Of a stretch of 64,000 nt of DNA, positions 2,679-64,000 are shown piece after piece; positions within the stretch are counted from its first letter, which is position 1; each line of letters opens with the position of its first letter. The DNA comes from Candidatus Woesebacteria bacterium (lineage in GTDB: Bacteria; Patescibacteriota; Microgenomatia; UBA8517). The notes under the pieces are model-generated. The model saw nothing but the letters and a program-made list of their open reading frames with translations. It did no database searches and was not told the DNA's origin. Position numbers and translations under genes: made by a program. The stretch spans positions 368,463-432,462 of the forward strand of contig CP065002.1 in assembly GCA_016700095.1 (NCBI GenBank), read 5' to 3'.

Positions 2679-5600
2679 CAATAGCAACATTACCCGAGAA
2701 GGTGGTGAGGGCAACATTTACATCAAGATCGTTATCGCCAAAGTCCAGTGAGGGATCGGTGGCACCTGAGGTATTAAATGTCCATGTAAAATCTGAGCCT
2801 GCTCCAAATGTAGAGCCGGCGATTTCTGTAGTATCCAAATTAAGAGTAATTGTGTCTGTTGTATCACTAACATCAGTATTGATACCGTTTGTACCACCTT
2901 GGATTATAAGGGTTTCTCCAGAACCAATCGACCTTGTATCACTATCGTCACCATCAATGTTCCAACCGGTATAACCGCCTGAGCCGGCAGACACATCGAT
3001 CCACGAAAGAACCCCGTTACTATTTGTAGAAAGAACTTGTTGATTTCCACCGTCCGCTGTGGGTAATGTATAAATTACATTACCAGCTAATACATCGGGT
3101 GCCTTGAAACCCGTGTAGTTATCTCCGTTTGCTTCCAATTCTTGAAACCTTACTTCACCGGTATTTCCCGCAGACGCTCCAAAGGGATTTAGATTGAGGG
3201 CTGAAGCCGAAACGTCTATAAACAAGGGCGCTTCGCCATCTGATCCGCCGATTGCCAAATCATAAGCAGTTTCTGTTAAGTAAGTTACGTCAGGAGTGGG
3301 GGTGGTGTTCACCGACCATTTTGATGAACCGGATGAAGCTGTCCATCCGCAGTTGGTTTCAGAAACATCGCAGACCAAATCATCTCCCCAGTACAGATCT
3401 CCCGATGCACTTCCTGCTGAAGCTGCATTGAAGCTAAAGACATTGTCAGTATCTGCATCATCATTAAGGCCTAAGGTGGTGCCATCAACAGACAAATTGC
3501 CTGTGATATTAACATCACCCACATTGGCATTATCTGTAATGGTCATTAGATCATTACCTGAGGTATCTTCAAAGGTTAGAGTACCTGTTGTACTTTCAAA
3601 CATCCTTACTCCATCAAAGAGTAAAAAGTTTGCATCAAGGTCAAGTGCTGTAACAATATCAGTATCACTTAAATCAATACCTGTTGTTATCCCTCCTGCT
3701 TCACTTACAAAGGAGAGACCAGTTGCTACTGCCGTATCCGTATCTGAATTATCAAGGACAAGTAGAGCTTCGGTTGCCCCACTACTTGCTGCATTATCAA
3801 TTACCAATCCGTTTTGAGTACCACTTGAGCTGGCATTGGTTAAAGTAAGGGTAGTGGAGTTGGCATTTGCTGTTCCACTAAGAGCCTGGTTTACTGCGAG
3901 TAAACTATCCGAATCAAGAGTAATTGTCAGGTCGTCGGTTCCAGCCGGTGTAAACCCTACATTACCTGTAAAGGTAAAATCATAGTCCTGGTTAACAGCA
4001 ACATCATCTGCATTAACGGTAATGCCATTACCTGCTCCAACGGTAAAGGTGGTATCACCATCTGCACCGACAAGGACATTATCTGCTCCACCTGTAAGGC
4101 CACTTCCTGCAACTGCGTCACCTAGTAGCCTTACTGTAAAGTCAAGGTTTTCATCACCATCATCACCGTTAGTTAGATTGGTTAGTATATTGCCATCACT
4201 ACTGGTGAACCTTAAGATGTTGGCATCCACAACAGAGTAGGTATCAGTATCATCATCGGCTATCGTCCAGGAAGAGAAAGCACTTACACTGGTTGTCCAT
4301 CCGCAGTTGGTTTCAGAAACATCGCAGACCAAATCATCTCCCCAGTACAGATCTCCCGATGCACTTCCTGCTGAAGCTGCGTTAAAGCCAAAGACATTGT
4401 CAGTATCTGCATCACTGTTTAGGCCGAGAGTGTTTCCGTATGCTTCGAAAGTTCCATCTACCTGCATATTGCCTGCGGAAGTAAGACTAAGTACTTCAGT
4501 TGTCCCGTTAGTGAATGTTAAATCATTATCTGTAGCAACTGATGTAAGTGTCCATGTATCAGCTATATCGTCGCCTTCATCGGCATCGAGAATAAATGTT
4601 GCATCTTCCGCCTCATTACCCTTTATATCAAACAACGCTTCCGGATTAGAATTATTAATTCCGACATTACCATCAGCATCAGCAAATATAGTGTAATCAG
4701 TAGTATCAGGATCTCTTCTAATTGCAAAAATACCTCCGAAGTCCTCACCGTTGTAATCTATGAGAAAACTACCTTTTCCATGGAATGTATCGTCTGTGGG
4801 TTCGCTGACAAATTGCGCCAATTTAGCACCCGTGGAATCATGAAACTCAATACCTAAATAATTTGCTCCTGTTGATGCAGTTGTACTTATTATGATATTA
4901 CTTGTATCACTGTCAACTACATGTAAGTCGCCACTTGGTGTTCTCGTTCCAATGCCTACATTTCCACCGGGATTAAAAGTAAGATCAACACTTCCATTTG
5001 TAGTTAAATCGATGGCTGTTGCTGAATCCTCGTCGAAATCAAAGGTCAACGTATTTGTACCATCTGCAAGTGACACTTCTGAATTAATTGAATTTGATAT
5101 TGTTTCATCGTTTTGCAAGGTAATATTTCCACCTTGGATATCAATCGCTCCCGTAAAATTAAAATTGTTTGTGGTAGCTAATATTGTATTGTCACCAAAT
5201 CCGAGTGATGTGTCGACACCGCCTGAAGCATTATATGTCCAGGTTATAGCTGATCCGCTTCCGAAAGTTGTGGTTCCAATCTCCGTTGTATCAAGGTTTA
5301 TCGTCACTGTGTCAACAGTACTATCAACAGTATCTATTCCATTCGTTCCTCCGATGATACTTAAAGTGTTGCTGTCTGCTATTTCCTGGCCACCACCAGA
5401 ATCACCGGCAACCGTAAACGAAGAGAAAGCACTTACACTGGTTGTCCATCCGCAGTTGGTTTCAGAAACATCGCAGACCAAATCATCTCCCCAGTACAGA
5501 TCTCCCGATGCACTTCCTGCTGAAGCTGCATTGAAGCCAAAGACATTGTCAGTATCTGCATCATCATTAAGGCCTAAGGTGGTGCCATCAACAGACAAAT

Positions 5601-8600
5601 TGCCTGTGATATTAACATCACCCACATTGGCATTATCTGTAATGGTCATTAGATCATTACCCGAGGTATCTTCAAAGGTTAGAGTACCTGTTGTACTTTC
5701 AAACATCCTTACTCCATCAAAGAGTAAAAAGTTTGCATCAAGGTCAAGTGCTGTAACAATATCAGTATCACTTAAATCAATACCTGTTGTTATCCCTCCT
5801 GCTTCACTTACAAAGGAGAGACCAGTTGCTACTGCCGTATCCGTATCTGAATTATCAAGGACAAGTAGAGCTTCGGTTGCCCCACTACTTGCTGCATTAT
5901 CAATTACCAATCCGTTTTGAGTACCACTTGAGCTGGCATTGGTTAAAGTAAGGGTAGTGGAGTTGGCATTTGCTGTTCCACTAAGAGCCTGGTTTACTGC
6001 GAGTAAACTATCCGAATCAAGAGTAATTGTCAGGTCATCGGTTCCAGCCGGTGTAAACCCTACATTACCTGTAAAGGTAAAATCATAGTCCTGGTTAACA
6101 GCAACATCATCTGCATTAACGGTAATGCCATTACCTGCTCCAACGGTAAAGGTGGTATCACCATCTGCACCGACAAGGACATTATCTGCTCCACCTGTAA
6201 GGCCACTTCCTGCAACTGCGTCACCTAGTAGCCTTACTGTAAAGTCAAGGTTTTCATCACCATCATCACCGTTAGTTAGATTGGTTAGTATATTGCCATC
6301 ACTACTGGTGAACCTTAAGATGTTGGCATCCACAACAGAGTAGGTATCAGTATCATCATCGGCTATCGTCCAGGAAGAGAAAGCACTTACACTGGTTGTC
6401 CATCCGCAGTTGGTTTCAGAAACATCGCAGACCAAATCATCTCCCCAGTACAGATCTCCCGATGCACTTCCTGCTGAAGCTGCATTGAAGCCAAAGACAT
6501 TGTCAGTATCTGCATCACTGTTTAGGCCGAGGGTGGTTCCGTATACAGAAAGGGTTGAAGTAAAGACTCCCGAACCGTTTACGGTGAATAGATTGTCAGC
6601 AAATGAGAGAAGATCTAAATCTGAACTTAATCCAATATTTGTACCATCAACCGTTAAAGAATCAATATTTAACTGAGTTCCTGTTATAACCCCTGCTGTT
6701 GTGATAGTCGCATTTGTTCCACCGACAGTAAAAGAAGCGTTTGTAACGTCGAGGCCGTTTTCGGCATCTACGTTACCTGAAAAACTAACTTGACCGGTTG
6801 AATTAAAATCAAGCGCGCCTGTACCAAGCGTTGATAGTGTCAAAGCACCAAGATCAATACTTGTAGCACTATCAAGAGAAAGAGTATCCGACAGTTCAGT
6901 GAAATTTAAGATATCATCGGCGATTGTTACGTTGGCTTCGTTGGCAGGGGAAGCTGTGACTGAGAAATCGGATGAAAAATCTATAGTATCCACGTTTACA
7001 CCTACAGTGCTGTCATTGTTTTCTATATTGACGATTGCAAATGCTGCACCGGAATCAGTTGAACACTCCCATGAGTCGTTTGCCTCATTCCATTTTAGAA
7101 CTTCACCATTTGCACATCCTTGCAGTAATCCAATTCCTCCGGCAAATACTTCCAGTCCAGATCCATTACTTACAGTTGAAGAAAGTCCATTTGTGGCTGT
7201 AATAGTTTGTATGGTCAACGCATTCGCACTAAGCGTCAAACCATCACCGGTGAAATCTGAAATAGTTTCCGAGTTAATAGTGATATCTCCTGCGATTTCT
7301 AGATTTCCACTATTATCTACGTCAAACAAATTATTACCCAGACTGTCCTCAAAAACGACCAGATCGCTTGATTGGGTACTATTGCCTTGTACAAGTAATT
7401 GAATTTCGTTAGAATCGCCGTCGATCGCTAATTTTGACGATAGGGAAGAATTGCCACCAATAATTACTTCGTCTGTTGTATTGTTTAAATAAATGAAACC
7501 GGTTTGTTGTGACCATTTTGAACTTCCGGCGCCAATCGCGGCATCCAAGTCATCAAGCACATCTTGGACATTTGTGCCTGAAGAATTAGCGAATTCAGCA
7601 AAAACTCCCACAAGTGAAGCGCCTGACATGTCTTCGTCTGATCCGGTATCGTTCAAACCGATTAAACCAATAGTTACATCTTGTCCTGAAGCAATTGTAA
7701 CTCCACCGACATCGGTGGTTATGCTGTCTGCAGTCAGGCTGTCTTGGATATCCACATTGCCTCCGGCGTTTATTGTTAACGTGGCTCCGTCGGCGGTAAT
7801 CATATCTCCATTTACCGCAAGATTACCGGTGATCGTCAAATCTCCGGCACTCTCATCAAAAAACAAAGCGGCGGTCGAATCGAGACCACCTATTGCAAAG
7901 TCATCTGTGAGACTTGTAAGGTAAGTAACTGTACCTGCGTCAGTAAAAAGGGAACTGGTTCCGGTTTTATCCTCTGCCCATGTAAATGTGCCTGTTGCGG
8001 AATTGTATGTTAGCACCTGATTGTCGGATGGGGTATTGGTTACCGACAGATGTCTGACAGTTATAGCTTCATCAGATATTTCGGATGATTCGACAGTATC
8101 ACCTATAACAGTTTCCAGAACATTATTAATTACTTGTAAGCCTGTACCTGTAAAATCGGCGATTGTATCTTGAGATAGCGTAAGTGAAGCTCCAATTTCT
8201 AACTCCCCAGAAACAAAAAAATCGCCGTTGGCGAGGTCTATTGTTGGAATTCCTGTACCTATAGTGACACCTCCACCTCCTGGATCGATAATTATGTCAC
8301 TAACCGATGTAATTGTATTGCCGGATAGATTCAATACTCCACCGATATCTAAGTTGCCATCAACACTGGCATCATTTTTTAAATTTGTTTTTACATAAAC
8401 ATTGAAAGACTGATCTGCGATAGATTGACTAGTCAAAGCTAGTACTTTGCTTTCTTTGTTTATGCTTTGTTTATCCATGCTTGCAATACGCACGGGGAAA
8501 ACCCTTGTCATTGTTTCGTTTATGTTTTTCTTTACCGCATTTGGAGTGATATGGCTTATTATTTTTATAGAGCTTAATGTAAGAAGTAATACTCCGGCTA

Positions 8601-8910
8601 AATATAACATTTTTTTAATCACTCTTTTTTGGTCAATTTGTAGGCTTGAATATATTTGAGGCGATGCAAGAGTTGACGTTCTTGAAGCCATTGGGATATA
8701 TGAATTAACAATTCGCAATTTTTTGTTCTTCTTTGGCTTAATTGATAAAAGCTGAGCTTTTGAATAGCGTCTATGTTTTCCTGAAGTACGGGTGGGAATA
8801 AGTATGTTTCGTTGTTCCCACCTCCTTAAAGTTTTTTGAGAAACTTTTAGAAACTTAGCGGCTTCTTGGATTGTTAAATCAGATGAAAATTTAGAATCGG
8901 GCAGTGTCAT
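1..8910 (-). CDS. Giant repetitive cell-surface protein (at least 2970 aa in window; C-terminal end lies beyond window start). N-terminal HTH_17/excisionase-MerR-like motif, one TM helix, then a G/T/S/D/N-rich beta-solenoid-like repeat region
   Basis: Hand reverse-translation from ATG at 8910..8908 gives MTLPDSKFSSDLTIQEAAKFLKVSQKTLRRWEQRNILIPTRTSGKHRRYSKAQLLSIKPKK..., then MLYLAGVLLLTLSSIKII (TM, Met at 8610..8608), then NKESKVLALTSQSIADQSFN... An in-frame stop lies upstream at 8940..8938. Spot checks at 1-60, 3001-3060, 4441-4500, 7021-7080 and 8161-8220 found no minus-frame stops. No minus ORF appears in the track, consistent with a run-off ORF. Confidence 0.75.
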   Translation of the reverse strand, partial: MTLPDSKFSSDLTIQEAAKFLKVSQKTLRRWEQRNILIPTRTSGKHRRYSKAQLLSIKPKKNKKLRIVNSYIPMASRTSTLASPQIYSSLQIDQKRVIKKMLYLAGVLLLTLSSIKIISHITPNAVKKNINETMTRVFPVRIASMDKQSINKESKVLALTSQSIADQSFNVYVKTNLKNDASVDGNLDIGGVLNLSGNTITSVSDIIIDPGGGGVTIGTGIPTIDLANGDFFVSGELEIGASLTLSQDTIADFTGTGLQVINNVLETVIGDTVESSEISDEAITVRHLSVTNTPSDNQVLTYNSATGTFTWAEDKTGTSSLFTDAGTVTYLTSLTDDFAIGGLDSTAALFFDESAGDLTITGNLAVNGDMITADGATLTINAGGNVDIQDSLTADSITTDVGGVTIASGQDVTIGLIGLNDTGSDEDMSGASLVGVFAEFANSSGTNVQDVLDDLDAAIGAGSSKWSQQTGFIYLNNTTDEVIIGGNSSLSSKLAIDGDSNEIQLLVQGNSTQSSDLVVFEDSLGNNLFDVDNSGNLEIAGDITINSETISDFTGDGLTLSANALTIQTITATNGLSSTVSNGSGLEVFAGGIGLLQGCANGEVLKWNEANDSWECSTDSGAAFAIVNIENNDSTVGVNVDTIDFSSDFSVTASPANEANVTIADDILNFTELSDTLSLDSATSIDLGALTLSTLGTGALDFNSTGQVSFSGNVDAENGLDVTNASFTVGGTNATITTAGVITGTQLNIDSLTVDGTNIGLSSDLDLLSFADNLFTVNGSGVFTSTLSVYGTTLGLNSDADTDNVFGFNAASAGSASGDLYWGDDLVCDVSETNCGWTTSVSAFSSWTIADDDTDTYSVVDANILRFTSSDGNILTNLTNGDDGDENLDFTVRLLGDAVAGSGLTGGADNVLVGADGDTTFTVGAGNGITVNADDVAVNQDYDFTFTGNVGFTPAGTDDLTITLDSDSLLAVNQALSGTANANSTTLTLTNASSSGTQNGLVIDNAASSGATEALLVLDNSDTDTAVATGLSFVSEAGGITTGIDLSDTDIVTALDLDANFLLFDGVRMFESTTGTLTFEDTSGNDLMTITDNANVGDVNITGNLSVDGTTLGLNDDADTDNVFGFNAASAGSASGDLYWGDDLVCDVSETNCGWTTSVSAFSSFTVAGDSGGGQEIADSNTLSIIGGTNGIDTVDSTVDTVTINLDTTEIGTTTFGSGSAITWTYNASGGVDTSLGFGDNTILATTNNFNFTGAIDIQGGNITLQNDETISNSINSEVSLADGTNTLTFDFDEDSATAIDLTTNGSVDLTFNPGGNVGIGTRTPSGDLHVVDSDTSNIIISTTASTGANYLGIEFHDSTGAKLAQFVSEPTDDTFHGKGSFLIDYNGEDFGGIFAIRRDPDTTDYTIFADADGNVGINNSNPEALFDIKGNEAEDATFILDADEGDDIADTWTLTSVATDNDLTFTNGTTEVLSLTSAGNMQVDGTFEAYGNTLGLNSDADTDNVFGFNAASAGSASGDLYWGDDLVCDVSETNCGWTTSVSAFSSWTIADDDTDTYSVVDANILRFTSSDGNILTNLTNGDDGDENLDFTVRLLGDAVAGSGLTGGADNVLVGADGDTTFTVGAGNGITVNADDVAVNQDYDFTFTGNVGFTPAGTDDLTITLDSDSLLAVNQALSGTANANSTTLTLTNASSSGTQNGLVIDNAASSGATEALLVLDNSDTDTAVATGLSFVSEAGGITTGIDLSDTDIVTALDLDANFLLFDGVRMFESTTGTLTFEDTSGNDLMTITDNANVGDVNITGNLSVDGTTLGLNDDADTDNVFSFNAASAGSASGDLYWGDDLVCDVSETNCGWTASSGSSKWSVNTTPTPDVTYLTETAYDLAIGGSDGEAPLFIDVSASALNLNPFGASAGNTGEVRFQELEANGDNYTGFKAPDVLAGNVIYTLPTADGGNQQVLSTNSNGVLSWIDVSAGSGGYTGWNIDGDDSDTRSIGSGETLIIQGGTNGINTDVSDTTDTITLNLDTTEIAGSTFGAGSDFTWTFNTSGATDPSLDFGDNDLDVNVALTTFSGNVAIDGNTLGLNSDADTDNVFSFNAASAGSASGDLYWGDDLVCDVSETNCGWTTSVSAFSSWTIADDDTDTYSVVDANILRFTSSDGNILTNLTNGDDGDENLDFTVRLLGDAVAGSGLTGGADNVLVGADGDTTFTVGAGNGITVNADDVAVNQDYDFTFTGNVGFTPAGTDDLTITLDSDSLLAVNQALSGTANANSTTLTLTNASSSGTQNGLVIDNAASSGATEALLVLDNSDTDTAVATGLSFVSEAGGITTGIDLSDTDIVTALDLDANFLLFDGVRMFESTTGTLTFEDTSGNDLMTITDNANVGDVNITGNLSVDGTTLGLNDDADTDNVFSFNAASAGSASGDLYWGDDLVCDVSETNCGWTTSVSAFSSWTIADDDTDTYSVVDANILRFTSSDGNILTNLTNGDDGDENLDFTVRLLGDAVAGSGLTGGADNVLVGADGDTTFTVGAGNGITVNADDVAVNQDYDFTFTGNVGFTPAGTDDLTITLDSDSLLAVNQALSGTANANSTTLTLTNASSSGTQNGLVIDNAASSGATEALLVLDNSDTDTAVATGLSFVSEAGGITTGIDLSDTDIVTALDLDANFLLFDGVRMFESTTGTLTFEDTSGNDLMTITDNANVGDVNITGNLSVDGTTLGLNDDADTDNVFSFNAASAGSASGDLYWGDDLVCDVSETNCGWTTSVSAFSSWTIADDDTDTYSVVDANILRFTSSDGNILTNLTNGDDGDENLDFTVRLLGDAVAGSGLTGGADNVLVGADGDTTFTVGAGNGITVNADDVAVNQDYDFTFTGNVGFTPAGTDDLTITLDSDSLLAVNQALSGTANANSTTLTLTNASSSGTQNGLVIDNAASSGATEALLVLDNSDTDTAVATGLSFVSEAGGITTGIDL
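3341..4440. repeat. Dispersed copy (about 1.15 units) of the 954-bp module inside the giant gene
   Basis: Offset 2715 from copy 1: 3296..3817 matches 638..1102 and 4022..4240 matches 353..571. Similarity starts at gtccatccgcagttgg (3341) and diverges after the ...SASLFRPRVFP-equivalent near 4440. Confidence 0.85.
5419..6545. repeat. Dispersed copy (about 1.15 units) of the 954-bp module inside the giant gene
   Basis: Offset 4818 from copy 1: the tail of 4892..5920 matches 638..1102 and 6125..6343 matches 353..571. It diverges near 6545. Confidence 0.85.
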
Positions 8911-9756
8911 GATAATTTTTATACTATGAGATAATATTTATTTTTGTTATTTATAATTAATAAAACTTAGACAAATATATGTATATATAGCTTTAAATGT
9001 CTATATTTATTAAGACAGATAAGTAAATTATTGTCAAGCCTAAAGTGTCTACTAAAAATAGGATAATATAAACCGCAAAATACATACAGAAAATACGTGA
9101 TGACATTTGATGTATTTAGTAAGTATTGGATGAGGTGTTTTTAAAGGTTTTTATCAAAAATACTACATCTAACCAATAATTTAGTGCTGACATATCTTAG
9201 AAATCAAATTAGAGAACACTAAGATAGTGCGTGAATTAAAAATGCATATATAATTATTATGTTAAAAATAGGCATAAAAGGAGAGGTTTATTAACAATTA
9301 ATTATATAAAACGCATAATATAAGCACAATAAACGCAGTTATTGCCAGACTTTATGTAATGCGGTAATTATATTGCAGGCACATTATTATTTATTTAGAT
9401 ATATATACCGCGGATATTGCAGTAATAATATATATCGTGAAATACTTCTCTGCCTCATACGGTAATTTGTATATACACGACATAATAAATAGAATATAGG
9501 ATATTATAAGGCTAATATTATAAATATTTTAGTATGCGGAAATATTATTTTATAGTATTGATTGAAAATACATCCCATCAAACATGTATTAGATATTTGA
9601 CCTATCGGTAAAACTATTTAACAATAGAGTAGGATTTAAGTTATGGGAAATTCAAAATATATAGGCCGATTTGTTTTTATTTCTTTTTGAGTTAGATATA
9701 TAAATACATTGCAAGGAAAAACAAAATGCAATAAACGACATTTTGTTTTAGTATGA

Positions 9757-39646: not shown

Positions 39647-40369
39647 ATGTTTGATATAATCTTCGTTATGAAAGATATTCCCGTTAACTTTGGCAAACTT
39701 TACATAGTCGCTACGCCGATAGGGAATTTGGCAGATATTTCAAACCGGGCAATTGATGTACTCAAAAACGTTAATTACATTTTGGCTGAGGACACGAGAG
39801 TGACGGCAAAACTTCTTAACCGCTTTGATATTGACCAAAGATTAGTTAGTTTTCACCAACATACACCAGAACAGAAATATCTATCAGTACTCAAAGATTT
39901 AATTGACGGCAAAAACATTGCCTTTGTTACCGATGCTGGTACTCCCGGAGTTAGTGATCCGGGCAATGAATTGATATCTTATTTAATAGAGAAGGAGTCT
40001 TTGATACAGATAACTGCAATACCTGGAGCATCTTCTTTGACTGCGGCATTGTCGATTTGTGGGTTTGATACCACGCACGTTGTTTTCGTAGGTTTTATGC
40101 CCAAAAAGCATCAGAAACAAATTTACGACACGGTGAAATTAAGTGGTTATGCACTTTGTTTTTATGAGACGTCAGGGAGAATAATCAAAACACTTGACAG
40201 AATGATGGCAGAGTTTGGAGAAGAAAGAAACGTCTTTGTGGGCAGGGAACTGACCAAAATGTACGAAGAGACGTATCGGGGAAGTCTGATGGAAGTTAAA
40301 TTGCAGATTGAAAAATCTGTACAAAAGGGAGAAATTGTGGTTGTTTTGGATAAAGGGAGGAAAATGTAG
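39647..40369 (+). CDS. rsmI: 16S rRNA (cytidine1402-2'-O)-methyltransferase RsmI (tetrapyrrole-methylase fold)
   Basis: LYIVATPIGNLADISNRAIDVLKNVNYILAEDTRVTAKLL...VTDAGTPGVSDPG; likely start at the internal Met (39668). Confidence 0.8.
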   Translation: MFDIIFVMKDIPVNFGKLYIVATPIGNLADISNRAIDVLKNVNYILAEDTRVTAKLLNRFDIDQRLVSFHQHTPEQKYLSVLKDLIDGKNIAFVTDAGTPGVSDPGNELISYLIEKESLIQITAIPGASSLTAALSICGFDTTHVVFVGFMPKKHQKQIYDTVKLSGYALCFYETSGRIIKTLDRMMAEFGEERNVFVGRELTKMYEETYRGSLMEVKLQIEKSVQKGEIVVVLDKGRKM

Positions 40370-40601
40370 AGTTTAGCAATTAGAATTTAGAGTTTGGGAA
40401 TTAGAAATTGAGAGTAAAATAGTGCAATTAGAGTAATTAGATACTATTAATCACAAAGGTGGTACCCTTTAGATAAATAATTTGGAGTACTGAATTTATA
40501 GCGGATTCAAAGAAGTTCTGGGGTCAGACAAAGTACTTAATTTCTTCCTTCTTGCAATAATGTTTCTGAGAAATTAGAATACAATCTTGTGACAAAATTA
40601 A

Positions 40602-58334: not shown

Positions 58335-58806
58335 GAGATTATTTTAGCATGAAGACAGTTATTTCAGAAATTAAAAATGAAGATTGTGTTAACGCTTGAA
58401 GACCCCTGCTAAGACAATTTGAATTATATAAGTATTTGATTGTTTGGTACTACCTAGGCCTTTTAGTTCTTTTGAAAGCGTCGTCAGTTGCATTTTCAGA
58501 AAATTTATCGTCGTCAGAATTCCTACCCCAAGTACGATTATATTGCGCTTCTACTGATCGAGTATCGGCTTTTGAATCTGTATTTTTTCCTGCTCCTCCG
58601 GATTTATCTTTTTTACTAAATGGATTCCAGCTTCTAGTCCTTTCATTACCACCAACAGGACCAGTTGGTCGTGCTGGTTCTTCTAATGGGCTTATTTTGG
58701 ATTTACCTTCATCTTCCATATGCATAATTGTTTCATTAATACACCAACTTGTCAACCGATTAAGGTATTTCCTACAACAAAATCTTCATTCATAGTATAA
58801 TTAATC

Positions 58807-59760
58807 ATGTTTAGGAAAGTCGTATTATATACAGCCGCCCCGATATTTGTTGTTTTGTTTTTTTTCTTGTGTATACCTGTTAAAGCTCAGGATGTGACCA
58901 TTCCTCAGGCTAAATCTTTAAAAATTAGCCAGGCACCTGACCAAATCGAAACAAATGAGTTCGAGGCAACGAGTTCGGCGACACTAACGGTAACATCGGT
59001 ACCTATTCCTACTCCCAAACCCGACATAACGCAAAGAACCGAGGAAACAGCAAGCCCGTTTCATATAATTTTAGCTAATCAAAAACTGGGCAATATGTTT
59101 CCTTTTAATCCGGTTAAATATGCCATCCGTTCAGCGGTATCTGTTGGTGTACCGCCGAATACAATTGTTCTACTTTTATTGCTTCCTGCGGTTGCGGCTA
59201 TAATTGCCGGCGCGAGGCATTTGATCGGGATACGCGGATTTGGAATATTTTTGCCGGCAGCGCTTTCCGTTGTGTTTTTGGCAATCGGACCTGTTGCCGG
59301 AATCGGCTTGTTTTTAATTATTGTTGCGATATCGATGGGGGCGAGAATATTTTTGCATAAGTCGAAAATACAATTGCAATACTTACCGCGAATGGCGCTT
59401 ATTCTTTGGTTTGTCGTAATTGGCGTTTTGCTTGTTTTGTTTGCCGCTCCAATTCTAAGGCAACCCGATATAACAAGCGTTTCTATATTTCCGGTTTTGA
59501 TTCTCGTTCTTTTGGCTGAAGAATTTTCGAAAGTGCAATTGGGAAAAAGCGCCAGAACGGCTATAAACTTAACAACGGAAACTTTGATCCTTGCTTTGGT
59601 TTCTTTTATTTTTCTAACCTTAGAGGGTGTGAGAGCTTTTGCTTTGCTTAATCCCGAGATATTTTTGATATCGGTTGCCCTGATAGATATTCTCCTCGGG
59701 CGATTTGTGGGACTTAGATTTATTGAACTTTGGAGATTTAGGAAACTCATATCAGGATAG
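58807..59760 (+). CDS. Hypothetical polytopic membrane protein with a signal peptide
   Basis: MFRKVVLYTAAPIFVVLFFFLCIPVKAQD, then at least 6 hydrophobic helices; the minus ORF 59079..59750 is a low-complexity shadow. Confidence 0.5.
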   Translation: MFRKVVLYTAAPIFVVLFFFLCIPVKAQDVTIPQAKSLKISQAPDQIETNEFEATSSATLTVTSVPIPTPKPDITQRTEETASPFHIILANQKLGNMFPFNPVKYAIRSAVSVGVPPNTIVLLLLLPAVAAIIAGARHLIGIRGFGIFLPAALSVVFLAIGPVAGIGLFLIIVAISMGARIFLHKSKIQLQYLPRMALILWFVVIGVLLVLFAAPILRQPDITSVSIFPVLILVLLAEEFSKVQLGKSARTAINLTTETLILALVSFIFLTLEGVRAFALLNPEIFLISVALIDILLGRFVGLRFIELWRFRKLISG

Positions 59761-59950
59761 AATACAGATTAAAAATATAATATTAAAAATCAAATATCAA
59801 ATATTTATAATTTCTAAATTCTAATTTCTAATTAATCTAGTGAATGAACCAAATGCCAAATATCAAAAATATAATATTAAATATTAAAAAATTGACAGCA
59901 GAATTATTAATTGAAATCATAAATATTTTTGATGAAAATTTGTATTTAGC

Positions 59951-60328
59951 ATGGTGATTACGTCAAATGCAGGTAAGTTAAAGAAAAATTTTCAGGATCG
60001 TCTGTATAATTTTGTGTTGAAGCTAACCAATTTTATTGGTTCATTAAATGAGCGTGATATGATTACAAAAGTCATATCAAATCAATTAGCACGCAGCGGA
60101 ACAAGTATTCTGAGTAATTACGTTGAGGGAAAATCAGCAAGTAGCAGGAAAGATTATATAAATTACTTTAACCACTCTCTTAAAAGCGCAAATGAAAGCA
60201 AGATATGGATAAGCTTACTTAGAGATACAAATAAATGCGAGTCGAAAGAAGCTTTAATGTTAATGACAGAACTTGAAGAAATTTCAAAGATTTTTGCTTC
60301 AAGTATAATAACATTGAAAAGAAAATAA
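59951..60328 (+). CDS. Four-helix-bundle protein (23S rRNA-intervening-sequence protein family)
   Basis: ...NQLARSGTSILSNYVEGKSASSRKDYINYFNHSLKSANESKIWISLLRD matches the family pattern (DQL.RSA.SI.ANIAEG....S.KDF..FL.IA.GS..E...WL.L). Confidence 0.7.
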   Translation: MVITSNAGKLKKNFQDRLYNFVLKLTNFIGSLNERDMITKVISNQLARSGTSILSNYVEGKSASSRKDYINYFNHSLKSANESKIWISLLRDTNKCESKEALMLMTELEEISKIFASSIITLKRK

Positions 60329-60398
60329 GTGTATTTGATATATGATATATAGTTTTGAATTATTATTTGATCTTTGATATTTCATTTTTAATATTACC

Positions 60399-61724
60399 AT
60401 GATAAAAAGGTCTTCTATTTTAGGTTTAAACGCTAGAACAACATTATTTTCATATCCGTATAATTCGTTACGCGGAAAATCGATTGCTACATCAAAATTA
60501 AAAACAAAGCGTATTTTGGGAAAAGCGGGGATTCCCGTACCGGAAAGATATGCGATTTTCTCACAACCGCATAAGATTATTAACTATGATTGGTCAAAAC
60601 TTCCACATTCATTTGCATTAAAGCCCAACAAAGGTTTAGGGGGAGAAGGAATAATAATAGCTAAAAAGCGAACGAGCGACAAAACGGGATGGATTACAAC
60701 GGATAAAAAGAGGGTTACCCAGGAAGATTTGAAATTACATGTTCTTGATATTCTAGAGGGGGCATATAGTATACAAAACGTACCGGATTGGGCGTATATA
60801 GAGGAATTCGTAGGACGGCATAAAGCCTTTCGAAAGTATGCCTTTCGGGGAACTCCCGACATTCGTGTTATTGTTTTTAATAAAGTTCCGGTAATGGCAA
60901 TGCTTAGACTTCCAACGAAAGAATCCGGTGGAAGAGCAAACTTACATCAGGGAGCAATTGCGGTCGGAGTTGATATTGCAACAGGTATAACAACCAAAGC
61001 TTACTGGAAAGGTCATTTTATTAAATATAAACCGGGAACAAAGCGCAAACTGCATGGAATCAAAATTCCGAAATGGGATCAGATTCTTAAAATTGCGGTT
61101 ATGTGTCAGGATGTTGCGGGTCTTGGCTATATGGGAGCCGATTTGGTTCTGCATCCCAAAAAGGGGCCGATGGTTTTGGAGCTTAACTATCAACCGGGAT
61201 TACAAATACAGCTTGCCAATACGGCAGGTTTGAAAAAACGCCTCGAGAAAGTGGAAGATTTGGAAGTAAGAGACGCCGAGCATGGCGTAAAAATAGCCAA
61301 AGCGCTATTTGCTTCAGTTTTTGCCGATCGGGTAAAAGCAAGCGAGGGCATCAAAACAGTGAAAGCTATCGAAGAAATTAAAATCAAAGGGAGGCGTTTC
61401 AAAAAGCAGAGGAAAAAAGTATTAGCGAAACTTGATACCGGTGCTTGGAGAACGTCGATAAGTTTGTCACTTGCCAAAGAACTTGGTCTAATGACTGAAA
61501 CAAATATACTGTGGGACAAAAAAGTAAAAAGCTCACTTGGTGCTGAGCAGAGGCCTGTAATCGAACTAACATTCTTTCTTGCAGGCAAAAAAATTACAAC
61601 GCCAGCAAGTGTAGCAAAACGCATGGCTTTAAAGTATCCTGTTATAATTGGTAGAAAGAACTTGAAAGGAATGCTTGTTGATCCTGATATAATTGAACGC
61701 TTGAAGGAAATTAAAGAAGGATAA
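60399..61724 (+). CDS. ATP-grasp ligase (alpha-L-glutamate-ligase-related / RimK-like) fused to a C-terminal retropepsin-like (putative zinc-protease, DTGA) domain
   Basis: N-terminal ATP-grasp (...LGKAGIPVPERYAIF...ALKPNKGLGGEGIII...); C-terminal LAKLDTGAWRTSISLSLAKELGL...YPVIIGRKNLKGMLVDP, an aspartic-protease-like D-T-G-A motif. Confidence 0.65.
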   Translation: MIKRSSILGLNARTTLFSYPYNSLRGKSIATSKLKTKRILGKAGIPVPERYAIFSQPHKIINYDWSKLPHSFALKPNKGLGGEGIIIAKKRTSDKTGWITTDKKRVTQEDLKLHVLDILEGAYSIQNVPDWAYIEEFVGRHKAFRKYAFRGTPDIRVIVFNKVPVMAMLRLPTKESGGRANLHQGAIAVGVDIATGITTKAYWKGHFIKYKPGTKRKLHGIKIPKWDQILKIAVMCQDVAGLGYMGADLVLHPKKGPMVLELNYQPGLQIQLANTAGLKKRLEKVEDLEVRDAEHGVKIAKALFASVFADRVKASEGIKTVKAIEEIKIKGRRFKKQRKKVLAKLDTGAWRTSISLSLAKELGLMTETNILWDKKVKSSLGAEQRPVIELTFFLAGKKITTPASVAKRMALKYPVIIGRKNLKGMLVDPDIIERLKEIKEG

Positions 61725-61742
61725 ACAAACTTATTAATAATT

Positions 61743-62615
61743 ATGAAAGTTAAACTGATTACAACTTTGCAATCAATCGAGATGCAGAGACTAAAAGACG
61801 AAACGTGTGCGATGGGGCACGAATGTGACCTTGTTGATTTGAGCAAATTTACTTTTTCGATTCGAGACACTAAGTTGTCGATTGACAATCTGGGTAATCC
61901 TAATCCCGATGTGGTTGTCGTTAAAGGAGTGACAGTCAACAAAGCTCCGATTGTTGCTTTAATTCACGACTACAGAAAACGAGGAATAAAAGTATTCGAC
62001 AACAACTATTGTGAGCATCAATACACAATAAATAAGGTAACCGATCTAATTAAATTATCTTTGAATAATGTTCCTATACCCGATACTTTCCATTGTCACG
62101 ACTTTGATGAGTTTTACCGAGCATGCGAAATAGTGGGTTATCCGGCGATTGTTAAATTAGTTGGAGCCGGAAAGGGCGCCGGTGTTTTTAAGGCCGATAA
62201 TAAGGAAAGGTTGGCGGAAATCATTTCAAACGCACAAAACGACATGCTTAAATCAGCCTCAAGATTTATCGTCCAGCAATATATTCCTTACGAACACGAT
62301 TTGCGAGTCCTTATTATTGGCGAAAAATTATTTGTGATGAAGCGAATTCCGGGCGAAGGTGAATTTCGTGCTAATTTTTCACTCGGTGGATCGGTTGAAA
62401 CTTTCGAACTTGACGACGAGGGAAAGGAACTGGCGAAGCGAGGTTTGGCTGCGGTTGATATGTCTGTCGCCGGAGTAGATTTACTTATAACCAAAGACAA
62501 CAAGCGTTACGTCTTGGAGGTTAACCATACCCCCGGATTTGTCGGAATGGAAAAGGCAACGGGTGAAAACATTGCACGAATTTACATGGAGCATGCGATT
62601 GGTAATGCATATTAA
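61743..62615 (+). CDS. RimK-like ATP-grasp ligase, paralog 1
   Basis: GYPAIVKLVGAGKGAGVFKA...DLRVLIIGEKLFVMKRIPGEGEFRANFSLGGSVE...VDLLITKDNKRYVLEVNHTPGF. Confidence 0.75.
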   Translation: MKVKLITTLQSIEMQRLKDETCAMGHECDLVDLSKFTFSIRDTKLSIDNLGNPNPDVVVVKGVTVNKAPIVALIHDYRKRGIKVFDNNYCEHQYTINKVTDLIKLSLNNVPIPDTFHCHDFDEFYRACEIVGYPAIVKLVGAGKGAGVFKADNKERLAEIISNAQNDMLKSASRFIVQQYIPYEHDLRVLIIGEKLFVMKRIPGEGEFRANFSLGGSVETFELDDEGKELAKRGLAAVDMSVAGVDLLITKDNKRYVLEVNHTPGFVGMEKATGENIARIYMEHAIGNAY

Positions 62616-62620
62616 GTATT

Positions 62621-62726
62621 TGGTAGTTGGTAGATGGTAGATAGTAGATGGTAGTAGATAGTAGATGGTAGATGGTAGATGGTAGATGGTAGATGGTAGA
62701 TAGTAGATGGTAGATGGTAGGTAGGT
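62621..62726. repeat. Imperfect heptanucleotide microsatellite (TGGTAGA/TAGTAGA)n, about 15 units
   Basis: tggtagttggtagatggtagatagtagatggtagtagatagtagatggtagatggtagatggtagatggtagatagtagatggtagatggtaggtagg. It begins 6 nt after the stop of 61743..62615 and ends 40 nt before the ATG of 62767. Confidence 0.9.
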
Positions 62727-62766
62727 TCAAGTATTAAGTAATTAGTCCTTAGTCATTTGCAAATTT

Positions 62767-63657
62767 ATGAAAATTTTAATCGCAGGATTAGTTAATAATT
62801 CACAACTAACACGTCTTCAGGAAGAAGGGGAAAAACGCGGTCATCAAGTTGATGGATGTTATTCTACTGACTTAATACTTAATGCGCAAAACGACGAATT
62901 CAAAGTTCATTTAATCGGTAAAAATATTACTTCGTATGACCTTATCTATTTGTGGGCGGTAAGCAAGCGTCGCTGGGAATGGTACACGGCTTGTTATTAT
63001 TTATCTCAACAGGGAAAAAAAGTAATAAACGCCAAAGTGGTTGATCCTTCCTATATATACTATCTTTCACCAGCGATGGATTATCTGAGGCAAACAGAGA
63101 ATGCTATTCCCTTTCCCAAATCAGCAATTTTATTGACGGAATCTGCGGTTGATGAGATTGCGGGACAGTTCGAATTTCCCGTTATAGTAAAAACCGCTTC
63201 AGGCAGGCAGGGGAAAGGTGTGTTTAAAGCAGACTCTCCTGAAAAAGTAAAAGAAATTATCGGCAATCTAAAAAACGTGTCGATGTCGTTTGTTGTTCGG
63301 GAATTCATTCCAAACGATGGAGATATACGTGTTTTTACAATTGGATACAAAGCACTTGGAGCAATGAAGCGAACACCACAGAAGGCGGGGGAATTTCGAA
63401 GTAATATAAGCCAGGGAGGAATTGGAACTAAGTTTAACCTGGATAATTACCCGGAAATAAGATTATTGGCCGAGAAGTTAAGTAAAGTAACCAAGACAGA
63501 AATTGCAGGTGTCGACATCATGTTGCATCAAAACAGTCAAAAACCGTATGTACTTGAAATTAATCCTGGTCCGCAGTTTAGTGGATTTGAAAAGTATACA
63601 AACATAAATGCAGCAGAAGAAATTATTAAGTATTTTGAAGAGATTGTAGCAAAGTAA
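62767..63657 (+). CDS. RimK-like ATP-grasp ligase, paralog 2
   Basis: FEFPVIVKTASGRQGKGVFKA...DIRVFTIGYKALGAMKRTPQKAGEFRSNISQGG...VDIMLHQNSQKPYVLEINPGPQF. Confidence 0.75.
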   Translation: MKILIAGLVNNSQLTRLQEEGEKRGHQVDGCYSTDLILNAQNDEFKVHLIGKNITSYDLIYLWAVSKRRWEWYTACYYLSQQGKKVINAKVVDPSYIYYLSPAMDYLRQTENAIPFPKSAILLTESAVDEIAGQFEFPVIVKTASGRQGKGVFKADSPEKVKEIIGNLKNVSMSFVVREFIPNDGDIRVFTIGYKALGAMKRTPQKAGEFRSNISQGGIGTKFNLDNYPEIRLLAEKLSKVTKTEIAGVDIMLHQNSQKPYVLEINPGPQFSGFEKYTNINAAEEIIKYFEEIVAK

Positions 63658-63661
63658 GTAA

Positions 63662-63711
63662 TTCCAACCCCGGGGGTTGGAATAGCCTCAAAACAACCCC
63701 GGGGGTTGGAA
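63662..63711. repeat. REP-B element (ttccaaccccgggggttggaa + tagcctcaaaa + caaccccgggggttggaa)
   Basis: 49/50 identical to the element at 39209..39258. Starts 5 nt after the stop of 62767..63657 and lies 54 nt upstream of a Y1 transposase start. Confidence 0.85.
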
Positions 63712-63764: not shown

Positions 63765-64000
63765 ATGCCAAAGAGACAACAGCCGTTGGTAAGCGGTTAT
63801 TATTATCATGTCTTTAATCGTGAACCCAACAGAAAGGTTACGTTCACTTCGCCAGATGAGTATGAGCGTGCAAAAATAACACTCTGGTATTATCAATTTC
63901 AACATCTACCTGTTTGTCTTTCTACGCTTTTGAATAAAATGCCTGATTGTGACAGAAAACGAATTACAAACGAGCTAAATATTAAAGACGAAAGAAAAGT
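63765..64000 (+). CDS. Second Y1 HUH (IS200/RAYT-like) transposase, 5' part only (runs off the window end)
   Basis: Hand translation MPKRQQPLVSGYYYHVFNREPNRKVTFTSPDEYERAKITL... parallels MPRRNVVKVYADHSYYHVYNRGVEKRSIFLDPSDYKKF of 32733..33380. Confidence 0.6.
   Translation, partial: MPKRQQPLVSGYYYHVFNREPNRKVTFTSPDEYERAKITLWYYQFQHLPVCLSTLLNKMPDCDRKRITNELNIKDERK

What the first reader, a model, noticed from the sequence alone, without database searches (positions are those of the whole stretch)
62621..62726. About 15-unit imperfect heptanucleotide microsatellite (TGGTAGA/TAGTAGA)n filling the promoter gap between the two RimK-like paralogs
Tandem 7-mers are rare in bacterial intergenic DNA. When they sit between a promoter and a gene, or within a promoter, slipped-strand changes in unit number alter spacing and expression (phase variation). 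The array starts 6 nt after the upstream stop and ends 40 nt before the downstream ATG, so it occupies essentially the whole promoter region of 62767..63657. Unit sequence varies (TGG/TAG), suggesting it is old but still repetitive enough to slip.
Basis: partly seen in the sequence, partly recalled or inferred. Interest (0 to 1): 0.55.

Follow-up and report, generated by a model that had tools for sequence, protein, structure and literature searches.

The report
Heptamer microsatellite splitting a ligase operon
A real run of about 15 seven-base repeats lies between two related ligase genes of an uncultured groundwater-type bacterium, but it looks like an ordinary slippage-made microsatellite that grew inside an operon, with no sign that it is a promoter switch.

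Summary
Bases 62621-62721 hold 14 good heptamer units (8 TGGTAGA, 3 TAGTAGA, 3 variants, one with a 3-nt insertion). About six decayed units follow in the same register, almost to the ATG at 62767. It is the only strong tandem array in the 64 kb window and is far beyond chance.

The window comes from a Candidatus Woesebacteria (CPR) genome. In 21 related loci the four genes 7TM_transglut, ATPgrasp_ST, RimK-like 1 and RimK-like 2 are packed tightly. The two RimK-like genes overlap (ATGA) or lie at most 8 nt apart in 15 of the 21. The 151-nt gap is therefore a lineage-specific insertion into an operon, not a conserved promoter region.

The gap has no promoter-like or terminator-like site and no stable fold. 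This genome's recognisable promoters place a TATAAT-like box 5-8 nt before the ATG, and the second RimK-like gene has none.

Heptamers are reported as the commonest long simple repeats in prokaryotes. They are also the commonest period in the Woesebacteria loci examined, and this unit is not specially enriched. Copy-number variation could not be tested because no close strain is in the databases.

Verdict: a new member of a known kind, of low to moderate interest.

The parts
58796..58801 (+). TATAAT box 5 nt upstream of the ATG of the first operon gene. Likely the operon promoter, of leaderless type.
   Evidence: Sequence. The -10 scan gives TATAAT, 6/6, gap 5. Function is inferred, not shown.
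58807..59760 (+). 7TM_transglut membrane protein, first gene of the conserved four-gene cluster.
   Evidence: Pfam PF14402, E 2.3e-23. Conserved upstream of ATPgrasp_ST in relatives.
59761..60398 (+). Lineage-specific insertion carrying a 23S_rRNA_IVP (Avd-like four-helix-bundle) gene at 59951-60328, flanked by imperfect inverted repeats. Context only, not part of the array.
   Evidence: Pfam PF05635, E 4.7e-17. Inverted repeats 59778-59804 and 60370-60396 are 93% complementary. This junction is -7 to 26 nt in relatives.
60399..61724 (+). ATPgrasp_ST plus Zn_protease-like fusion protein, second conserved gene.
   Evidence: Pfam PF14397, E 5e-68, and PF05618, E 2e-9.
61743..62615 (+). RimK-like ATP-grasp ligase paralog 1 (R1).
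   Evidence: Pfam PF08443, E 3.9e-29. The orthologs end at the same residue.
62610..62631 (+). 5' copy of a roughly 22-28 nt direct repeat (TATTAAGTATTTGGTAGTTGGT) that brackets the array. It includes the R1 stop codon.
   Evidence: the repeat finder family D8, 77% identity to 62732-62753. 19 of 28 positions match, including 9 exact bases at the start.
62621..62721 (+). Core heptanucleotide array: 14 units (8 TGGTAGA, 3 TAGTAGA, TGGTAGT, TGGTAGG, and one TGGTAG[TAG]A). C-free.
62666..62700 (+). Longest uninterrupted run: five perfect TGGTAGA units. This is the part most able to slip.
   Evidence: Zero-mismatch 14-mers at 62666, 62673, 62680 and 62687. Unit table.
62722..62766 (+). Decayed heptamer tail in register with the array (TAGGTTC, AAGTATT, AAGTAAT, TAGTCCT, TAGTCAT, TTGCAAA), running to the R2 start. 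It contains the 3' copy of the flanking direct repeat (62732-62753). No -10-like box and no Shine-Dalgarno sequence.
62767..63657 (+). RimK-like ATP-grasp ligase paralog 2 (R2). It is intact and keeps all columns that are invariant in the family alignment.
   Evidence: Pfam PF08443, E 5.2e-33. 100% identical to QQS39371.1. Alignment A1.
63661..63711 (.). Two copies of a GC-rich palindrome (CAACCCCGGGGGTTGGAA) just after R2. These are the only strong hairpins at the 3' end of the cluster and probably mark the operon end.
   Evidence: D10, I13. One search lists a 10-pair stem at 63661-63683. A terminator role is inferred.

Best explanation
The array is a long heptanucleotide simple sequence repeat. 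It arose and grew by replication slippage in what was originally a very short, or overlapping, junction between two co-transcribed, translationally coupled RimK-like ligase genes in a Candidatus Woesebacteria genome.

It is most likely transcribed as part of the polycistronic mRNA of the cluster 7TM_transglut, (IVP insert), ATPgrasp_ST, RimK-like 1, RimK-like 2. That mRNA would start at a leaderless-type TATAAT promoter in front of the first gene, or at the TTTAAT box in front of ATPgrasp_ST.

Its mechanistic consequence would be at the RNA and translation level. It replaces the ATGA-type stop/start overlap seen in relatives with about 150 nt of unstructured, C-free RNA. That RNA carries UAG stops in all three frames and nine AUG-initiated 5-7 codon mini-ORFs. 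Ribosomes finishing R1 can then no longer pass directly into R2, and R2 must be initiated independently or after scanning or re-initiation. Because five units are perfect, the length could still change by slippage and so shift the R2:R1 ratio in a graded way.

Shown: the repeat itself, its uniqueness in the window, the operon context in relatives, and the absence of promoter, terminator and structure signals.

Inferred: co-transcription, loss of coupling, and any effect of length on expression. The most probable selective status is neutral or mildly tolerated.
For: - Real array, far beyond chance.
- Orthologous loci: the R1-R2 gap is -4 (ATGA) in 6 loci and 0-8 nt in 9 more of 21. The TM7-ST and ST-R1 junctions are likewise -7 to 26 nt. 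The nearest R2 relatives (63-65% identity: L001, L002, L003) have gaps of -4, 74 and 1, so the 151-nt gap is a recent, lineage-specific gain.
- The whole gap is in heptamer register, with perfect units in the middle and decayed units at the 3' side, and is bracketed by a short direct repeat. This is the typical life history of a slippage-grown microsatellite.
- No promoter-like or terminator-like site lies in 62616-62766. No -10-like hexamer lies within 45 nt of the R2 ATG, while 9 of 37 genes, including the first operon gene, have one 5-8 nt before the ATG.
- RNA fold z-score is +0.35, and the single-stranded DNA fold is 0 kcal/mol. Strong hairpins occur only after R2.
- The genome hardly uses Shine-Dalgarno sequences (2 of 37 genes), so tight coupling or overlap is the expected way to translate internal cistrons.
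- Mini-ORFs and TAG|ATG adjacency are listed.
- Heptamers are the commonest period in Woesebacteria loci (16 of 38 arrays). They are reported as the most abundant long simple repeats in prokaryotes, attributed to polymerase slippage (PMC4679880 introduction; PMC4692102 discussion).
- The unit is not special. The four-unit pattern gives 7 hits in viral contigs, against 9, 11 and 47 for three control heptamers of the same composition. It gives at least 120 metagenome hits, in contigs of 28-72% GC.
Against: - No transcript data exist, so co-transcription is inferred from gene order in relatives and from missing signals. CPR promoters are not characterised, and the promoter model here is my own reading of 37 genes.
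- R2 is intact and conserved, so it must still be expressed well enough. A cryptic promoter in the gap would also explain that.
- Two other lineages (L017, L025) have short heptamer arrays in the same junction next to -10-like boxes close to the ATG (read by eye). In those lineages an internal promoter may have evolved.
- Six of 21 relatives carry some insertion at this particular junction, against one or two at each of the other two junctions. This hints that uncoupling R2 may be favoured rather than neutral.
Confidence: 0.6

Rival explanations
1. One reading: the array lies in or just downstream of a promoter for R2. Slipped-strand changes of unit number switch or tune R2 transcription, as the (ATCTTTC)n tract does between the P2 and P1 promoters of Haemophilus influenzae hmw1A.
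For: - There is a heptamer precedent. In hmw1A, transcript and protein levels fall as the number of 7-bp repeats rises (PMC8262952).
- Five perfect units remain.
- The array is directly upstream of an intact gene.
- G-to-A variant units create weak GATAGT hexamers (sequence).
- L017 and L025 have short heptamer arrays next to -10-like boxes in the same junction.
Against: - No sigma-70-like site lies in the gap.
- No -10-like hexamer lies within 45 nt of the ATG, unlike this genome's recognisable promoters.
- The junction is an operon-internal overlap in most relatives.
- The target is a cytoplasmic ATP-grasp ligase, not the surface or restriction-modification type of gene usual for contingency loci (established knowledge).
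- Only one such array occurs in 64 kb.
- No polymorphism data exist.
Confidence: 0.13
2. The transcribed array is a platform for an oligomeric RNA-binding protein that reads UAG (or UGG/UAG) triplets spaced 7 nt apart. It would control R2 translation, like HutP or TRAP operators or the regulator proposed for the TAACTGA repeats of Beggiatoaceae.
For: - UAG recurs at exact 7-nt spacing in runs of 6 and 10.
- HutP recognises three XAG motifs separated by 4-nt spacers on each face (PMC2425495).
- The RNA is unstructured and therefore accessible.
- The genome lacks Shine-Dalgarno sequences, the situation in which MacGregor proposed that repeats bind a protein (PMC4679880).
Against: - There is no terminator or stem for such a protein to act on.
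- The unit is not found elsewhere in the window.
- The unit is no more frequent than control heptamers.
- Heptamer arrays in relatives have unrelated units, many without UAG.
- Fifteen or more sites is far beyond what a hexamer or 11-mer ring needs.
- HutP and TRAP are known from Bacillus-type Firmicutes (established knowledge), and no candidate gene was identified.
Confidence: 0.07
3. The gap is the remnant or a miniature form of a mobile intergenic element. Examples in related genomes occupy junctions of this same operon: IVP cassettes and palindromic hairpin elements.
For: - Other junction insertions are clearly mobile and multi-copy. L016 has IVP cassettes with 44-nt inverted repeats at two junctions.
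- L005 has a 74-nt hairpin in two copies, 73/74 identical to L002 although the flanking proteins are 78-81% identical.
- The window has its own IVP cassette one junction upstream, whose flanks are partly heptamer-periodic.
- A direct repeat brackets the array, which could be read as a target-site duplication (D8).
Against: - The array has no inverted partner, no hairpin and no second copy in the window on either strand.
- It encodes nothing.
- The bracketing repeat is itself in heptamer register, which fits slippage and decay better.
Confidence: 0.06
4. The array is coding on the opposite strand. The minus-strand ORF 62730..62521 (69 aa) would carry a 7-residue peptide repeat.
For: The complement (TCTACCA)n has no stop codon, so the ORF listing reports a 69-aa ORF with the repeat LPSTIYH.
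Against: - The ORF exists automatically for any stop-free unit.
- It starts with TTG and runs antisense into the 3' end of R1.
- It has no -10 box, and it lies opposite to all neighbouring genes.
- A heptamer array would shift frame with every slippage event.
Confidence: 0.02

Closest known systems
Long simple sequence repeats (LSSR) of heptanucleotide unit in prokaryotic intergenic DNA (Mrazek, Guo and Shah 2007, as cited in PMC4679880 and PMC4692102). Examples include GGGAATC in Xanthomonas and GGGGA(T/C)T in Nostoc PCC 7120, which has a 26-unit array between pecE and pecF.
   Same: Head-to-tail 7-nt units. Non-coding, and here intra-operon like the pecE/pecF case. Imperfect units. Length and sequence vary between relatives. 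Origin attributed to polymerase slippage.
   Different: The unit is not G4-forming and is not a genome-wide family, as far as the 64 kb window shows. The host is a CPR bacterium with SD-less, leaderless-type gene starts.
Haemophilus influenzae hmw1A/hmw2A (ATCTTTC)n phase-variable promoter repeat (PMC8262952).
   Same: A 7-bp unit with 13-24 copies directly upstream of a gene. Copy number tunes expression in a graded way.
   Different: There the tract sits between two mapped promoters and overlaps their -10 and -35 boxes, the gene is a surface adhesin, and copy number is known to vary. Here no promoter is detectable, the context is an operon-internal junction, the gene is a cytoplasmic ligase, and variation is unknown.
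TAACTGA direct repeats of marine Beggiatoaceae, Cyanobacteria and Bacteroidetes (PMC4679880), and the cyanobacterial heptanucleotide repeats of Calothrix PCC 7601 (mentioned in PMC4692102).
   Same: Heptamers carrying stop codons, in forward orientation upstream of start codons, in genomes or genes lacking Shine-Dalgarno sites. Function unknown, and a translational role has been proposed.
   Different: Those are one unit repeated at more than 100 loci per genome, usually 2-6 copies, within a few nucleotides of the ATG. Here a single locus is seen, with 14-20 units, and the intact part ends 45 nt before the ATG.
HutP operator of the Bacillus subtilis hut operon (PMC2425495).
   Same: XAG triplets with 4-nt spacers, which gives 7-nt periodicity, in single-stranded RNA.
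   Different: The HutP site is two clusters of three triplets flanking a terminator stem with a 12-17 nt linker. Here there are about 16 triplets, no terminator and no known cognate protein.

Membership tests
Long simple sequence repeat (heptanucleotide LSSR) | Head-to-tail copies of a 1-11 nt unit | tested here: met
   TRF: period 7, 13.9 copies, 86% matches. Unit table.
Long simple sequence repeat (heptanucleotide LSSR) | Longer than expected by chance for the genome's composition | tested here: met
   13 matches against 0.38 expected, and 0 of 100 shuffles reach 13. It is the only region with at least 80% lag identity.
Long simple sequence repeat (heptanucleotide LSSR) | A unit whose length is not a multiple of three lies outside coding sequence | tested here: met
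   It lies between the R1 stop (62615) and the R2 ATG (62767). Both ends agree with the orthologs.
SSR-mediated phase-variable (contingency) locus, hmw1A type | Repeat placed within a promoter, or between a promoter and the start codon of the regulated gene | tested here: inconclusive
   No sigma-70-like site in the gap. No -10-like hexamer within 45 nt of the ATG. The junction is operon-internal in relatives. However, CPR promoters are uncharacterised, and an upstream operon promoter would still place the repeat between a promoter and the gene.
SSR-mediated phase-variable (contingency) locus, hmw1A type | Unit number varies between cells, strains or samples | not testable with these tools
   The exact proteins are on record from one contig only. 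The nearest homologue is 64% identical.
SSR-mediated phase-variable (contingency) locus, hmw1A type | Expression of the adjacent gene changes with unit number | not testable with these tools
   Needs reporter assays or strain-resolved transcript data.
SSR-mediated phase-variable (contingency) locus, hmw1A type | Long uninterrupted tract | tested here: inconclusive
   The longest perfect run is five units (35 nt). The rest is interrupted by G-to-A variants and a 3-nt insertion. The threshold for 7-mers in this organism is unknown.
Genome-wide heptamer repeat family (TAACTGA type, cyanobacterial heptanucleotide repeats) | The same unit repeated at many loci of the genome | tested here: not met
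   No other match on either strand in the 64 kb window. The other 1.2 Mb of the genome could not be read.
HutP/TRAP-type triplet-repeat RNA operator | NAG triplets at regular short spacing (4-nt spacers for HutP) | tested here: met
   TAG at exact 7-nt spacing in runs of 6 and 10. The HutP motif is described in PMC2425495.
HutP/TRAP-type triplet-repeat RNA operator | Triplet clusters overlap or flank a terminator or anti-terminator structure, or a ribosome-binding site, that the protein controls | tested here: not met
   No terminator-like site in the gap. Fold z-score +0.35. The intact array ends 45 nt before the ATG.
HutP/TRAP-type triplet-repeat RNA operator | Cognate ring-shaped RNA-binding protein encoded in the genome | not testable with these tools
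   Only 64 kb of a 1.27 Mb genome is available, and none of the nine proteins scanned is such a protein.
Mobile intergenic elements seen at this operon's junctions in relatives (IVP cassettes, palindromic hairpin elements) | Terminal inverted repeats or a stable hairpin | tested here: not met
   No inverted partner. No stable fold as RNA or DNA.
Mobile intergenic elements seen at this operon's junctions in relatives (IVP cassettes, palindromic hairpin elements) | Several copies per genome | tested here: not met
   A single copy in the window. The whole genome was not available.

The most novel reading that the evidence does not exclude
In Woesebacteria, genes lack Shine-Dalgarno sites and many mRNAs appear leaderless. 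In that setting, heptamer arrays that repeatedly colonise operon junctions could be selected, tunable intercistronic spacers. In this reading the (UAG-AUG-G)n array acts as a stop/start relay of mini-ORFs in all three frames. It would set, and by slippage heritably re-set, how many ribosomes leaving RimK-like 1 reach RimK-like 2, and so the stoichiometry of two peptide-ligase paralogs.
Probability: 0.08. Interest if true: 0.55.

Novelty: new member of a known kind. Interest (0 to 1): 0.25.

Why it matters
If the array is only a slippage product, it matters little. It becomes one more example, from a CPR genome, of the known excess of heptanucleotide repeats in prokaryotic non-coding DNA.

It is a clean natural case in which a translationally coupled gene pair, overlapping in most relatives, has been pulled 151 nt apart while the downstream gene stays intact. 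In an organism without Shine-Dalgarno sites, that poses a concrete and testable question: how are internal cistrons initiated?

If copy number proved variable, it would be the first indication of contingency-type variation in a CPR bacterium, acting on a cytoplasmic peptide-ligase system and not on a surface antigen.

Tried and rejected
- **Exact-protein look-ups.** R1, R2 and P0001 were looked up to find other assemblies of the same strain.
The hits span 28-72% GC, are mostly intergenic, and share almost no genes with the window. In viral contigs the unit gives 7 hits against 9, 11 and 47 for three control heptamers of the same composition. The idea of a special motif was rejected.
- **Secondary structure.** No stable RNA or DNA fold was found. 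Two-tier G-quadruplexes (GG-N5-GG) were considered and rejected from the ViennaRNA energy rule; this was my own calculation and was not run. H-DNA was rejected because the mirror repeat is not homopurine.
- **Rfam.** Only two tRNAs are found in the window.
- **Global period-7 signal.** In intergenic DNA of 26 Woesebacteria sequences there is only a small excess at lag 7 (0.2905 against about 0.28-0.288 at neighbouring lags). Heptamer periodicity is therefore local, in arrays, and not pervasive.
- **Inverted partner array.** L005 has an inverted pair of 8-mer arrays 2 kb apart. No such partner exists for this array in the window. The window ends 343 nt after R2, so a downstream partner cannot be excluded.
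- **Strain comparison of a relative's junction element.** P0036 was read on 24 contigs, of which 2 distinct places were returned. The 74-nt hairpin is identical in both. This says nothing about heptamer slippage.
- **Minus-strand peptide-repeat ORF.** Rejected as an automatic by-product of a stop-free complement.
- **Assembly artefact.** Judged unlikely, because the array is 101 nt, imperfect, and inside a 1.27 Mb contig. The unit count of the dominant allele could still be slightly wrong.

Full report
**1. Observation**

- Tandem Repeats Finder gives 62621-62720, period 7, 13.9 copies, 86% matches, score 145. The next best score in the 64 kb window is 73.
- Read unit by unit, there are 14 recognisable units from 62621 to 62721. 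Eight are TGGTAGA and three are TAGTAGA. The others are TGGTAGT, TGGTAGG, and one unit with a duplicated TAG (TGGTAGTAGA).
- Five perfect units run from 62666 to 62700.
- Downstream, the same register continues through decayed units (TAGGTTC, AAGTATT, AAGTAAT, TAGTCCT, TAGTCAT) almost to the ATG at 62767. Nearly the whole 151-nt gap therefore derives from heptamers.
- A two-unit probe with up to 2 mismatches matches 13 times, all here and all on the + strand. Shuffles give 0.38 expected.
- No other region of the window reaches 80% self-identity at any lag from 4 to 15, apart from a weak period-7 patch at 59789-59833.
- The core array contains no C.
- The distances to the flanking stop and start codons are as stated.

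**2. Organism and genes**

- The downstream protein is 100% identical to QQS39371.1, a 'RimK family alpha-L-glutamate ligase' of a Candidatus Woesebacteria MAG, on a 1.27 Mb contig.
- The next best homologue is only 64% identical. Exact-sequence look-ups of both flanking proteins found no other contig. Strain-level comparison of unit number is therefore impossible with these data.
- Pfam assigns the local genes as follows:
  - 7TM_transglut: 58807-59760
  - a 23S_rRNA_IVP four-helix-bundle gene: 59951-60328
  - ATPgrasp_ST fused to a Zn_protease-like domain: 60399-61724
  - RimK-like R1: 61743-62615
  - RimK-like R2: 62767-63657

**3. Comparative context (the key result)**

- A scan of one genome per species returned 37 loci. 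Twenty-one of them carry R1 directly upstream of R2, mostly preceded by 7TM_transglut and ATPgrasp_ST.
- The R1-R2 junction is an ATGA overlap in 6 loci and a gap of 0-8 nt in 9 more.
- The 7TM-ST and ST-R1 junctions are equally tight, from -7 to 26 nt.
- This is a conserved four-gene operon with translational coupling. The 151-nt gap in the window is a lineage-specific insertion. So is the 638-nt IVP cassette one junction upstream, which has 27-nt inverted terminal repeats that are 93% complementary.
- Other lineages have different inserts at the R1-R2 junction:
  - a 74-nt stable hairpin in L002 and L005 (-18 kcal/mol, z -4.3). It is 73/74 identical although the flanking proteins are 78-81% identical, and L005 has a second copy;
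  - an IVP cassette with 44-nt inverted repeats in L016;
  - short heptamer arrays of unrelated units in L017 ((TTCTAAA)4) and L025.

**4. Promoter, terminator and structure**

- The consensus scan finds no promoter-like and no terminator-like site between 62616 and 62766.
- This genome almost never has a Shine-Dalgarno sequence (2 of 37 genes).
- Nine of 37 genes have a TATAAT-like box ending 5-8 nt before the ATG, which is a leaderless-type arrangement. These include the first operon gene (TATAAT at 58796-58801) and ATPgrasp_ST (TTTAAT at 60387-60392).
- R2 has no hexamer with at least 5/6 matches, or 4/6 with A2 and T6, within 45 nt upstream.
- The gap does not fold. The RNA z-score is +0.35, and the DNA minimum free energy is 0 kcal/mol.
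- The only strong hairpins are two copies of a GC-rich palindrome just after R2.
- Together these results favour read-through transcription from R1 into R2. The array would then be an intercistronic spacer, not a promoter. This step is inferred, not shown.

**5. What the array would do as RNA**

- (UGGUAGA)n places UAG in all three frames every 21 nt.
- Because the unit reads UAG-AUG-G, it also places nine AUGs. Each opens a 5-7 codon mini-ORF, and several of these end directly next to the following AUG.
- In relatives, ribosomes can pass from R1 to R2 through the ATGA overlap. Here they would have to re-initiate or scan across about 150 nt of decoy starts and stops.
- The expected effect is uncoupling of R2 from R1, probably with lower R2 output, and an effect that depends on length. 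This is a mechanistic inference and there are no data for it.

**6. Is the heptamer special?**

It is not.

These range from 28 to 72% GC, the arrays are mostly intergenic, and the contigs share almost no genes with the window.
- In viral contigs the pattern gives 7 hits. Three control heptamers of the same base composition give 9, 11 and 47.
- Within 289 kb of Woesebacteria DNA (25 loci plus the window), period 7 is the commonest period among arrays with at least 3 copies: 16 of 38, against 8 for period 6 and 5 for period 8.
- One genome (L014) has about 1.5 kb of non-coding DNA upstream of this same operon, built from at least seven different heptamer arrays.
- This agrees with the published observation that heptanucleotides are the most abundant long simple sequence repeats in most prokaryotic genomes. 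That excess has been tentatively ascribed to the length of DNA held by the polymerase (PMC4679880 introduction; PMC4692102 introduction and discussion).

**7. Comparison with known systems**

- The closest kind is the heptanucleotide long simple sequence repeat. One documented example lies inside an operon: GGGGATT, 26 units, between pecE and pecF of Nostoc PCC 7120 (PMC4692102).
There, more repeats give less transcript (PMC8262952). The defining features of that class are a promoter context, copy-number polymorphism and an expression effect. They are respectively inconclusive or unfavourable, untestable and untestable here.
- The 7-nt spacing of UAG formally matches the HutP recognition rule, which is XAG with 4-nt spacers (PMC2425495). 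But there is no terminator to act on and no sign of a cognate protein, and relatives' arrays have other units.
- The genome-wide TAACTGA-type families (PMC4679880) differ in being multi-locus and immediately adjacent to start codons.

**8. Verdict**

- The array is best explained as a slippage-generated heptanucleotide microsatellite that expanded inside a formerly overlapping gene junction of a conserved ATP-grasp ligase operon in a Woesebacteria genome.
- It is probably co-transcribed, and it uncouples translation of the second RimK-like paralog.
- The promoter and phase-variation reading is not supported by the available evidence. It cannot be excluded without read-level and transcript data.
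- The finding is a new member of a known kind, of low to moderate interest.

Noticed in passing
window 1-8937, minus strand: A giant open reading frame of at least 2979 aa that runs off the start of the window. It is built of 954-nt (318-aa) tandem repeats, with 50% self-identity at lag 954. It explains the higher GC content and the regularly spaced spurious + strand ORFs in the first 8 kb.
   Followed up: partly
window 59761-60398; L016 1500-2004, 2893-3398, 5451-5576: A 23S_rRNA_IVP (Avd-like four-helix-bundle) gene cassette with imperfect inverted terminal repeats is inserted between the 7TM and ATPgrasp_ST genes. In L016 (a Patescibacteria single-cell genome), similar cassettes with 44-nt inverted repeats sit at two other junctions of the same operon, and a third pair of ends lies further downstream. 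IVP genes seem to behave as mobile, stem-flanked cassettes that target operon junctions.
   Followed up: partly
window 63661-63711 and 63768-64000: Two copies of the GC-rich palindrome CAACCCCGGGGGTTGGAA lie right after R2. An ORF follows that begins MPKRQQPLVSGYYYHVFNRE and is cut by the window end. This looks like a REP-like palindrome pair next to a RAYT/IS200-like tyrosine transposase gene, but the 77-aa fragment gave no Pfam hit.
   Followed up: partly
window 40363-40441: A degenerate period-7 array (NNNNTAG: AGTTTAG CAATTAG AATTTAG AGTTTGG GAATTAG ...) starts at the stop codon of ORF 39647-40369. It is a second, weaker example of UAG at 7-nt spacing.
   Followed up: no
window, gene starts throughout (for example 29043, 44728, 58807): The genome is almost free of Shine-Dalgarno sequences (2 of 37 genes). 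Nine of 37 genes have a TATAAT-like box ending 5-8 nt before the ATG, which suggests widespread leaderless mRNAs.
   Followed up: partly
L005 3240-3317 and 5278-5354; L002 3328-3401; L232 and L233 1427-1500: A 74-nt hairpin element lies between R1 and R2 of another Woesebacteria clade. It folds to -18 kcal/mol (z -4.3). It is 73/74 identical between two genomes whose flanking proteins are only 78-81% identical, and it is present twice in L005. It is either a recently spread palindromic element or a conserved RNA.
   Followed up: partly
L014 318-1855: About 1.5 kb of non-coding DNA upstream of the same operon, in a complete Woesebacteria genome (CP055308.1). It is a patchwork of at least seven different heptamer arrays (TGATTTA, CTTTGTT, TCAATGG, GTTATTT, GTTAATT and others) around one GC-rich hairpin.
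   Followed up: partly
window 58450-58755, minus strand: A 101-aa highly charged ORF lies in the 470-nt 'non-coding' region upstream of the operon. It may be a real small gene and was not examined.
   Followed up: no
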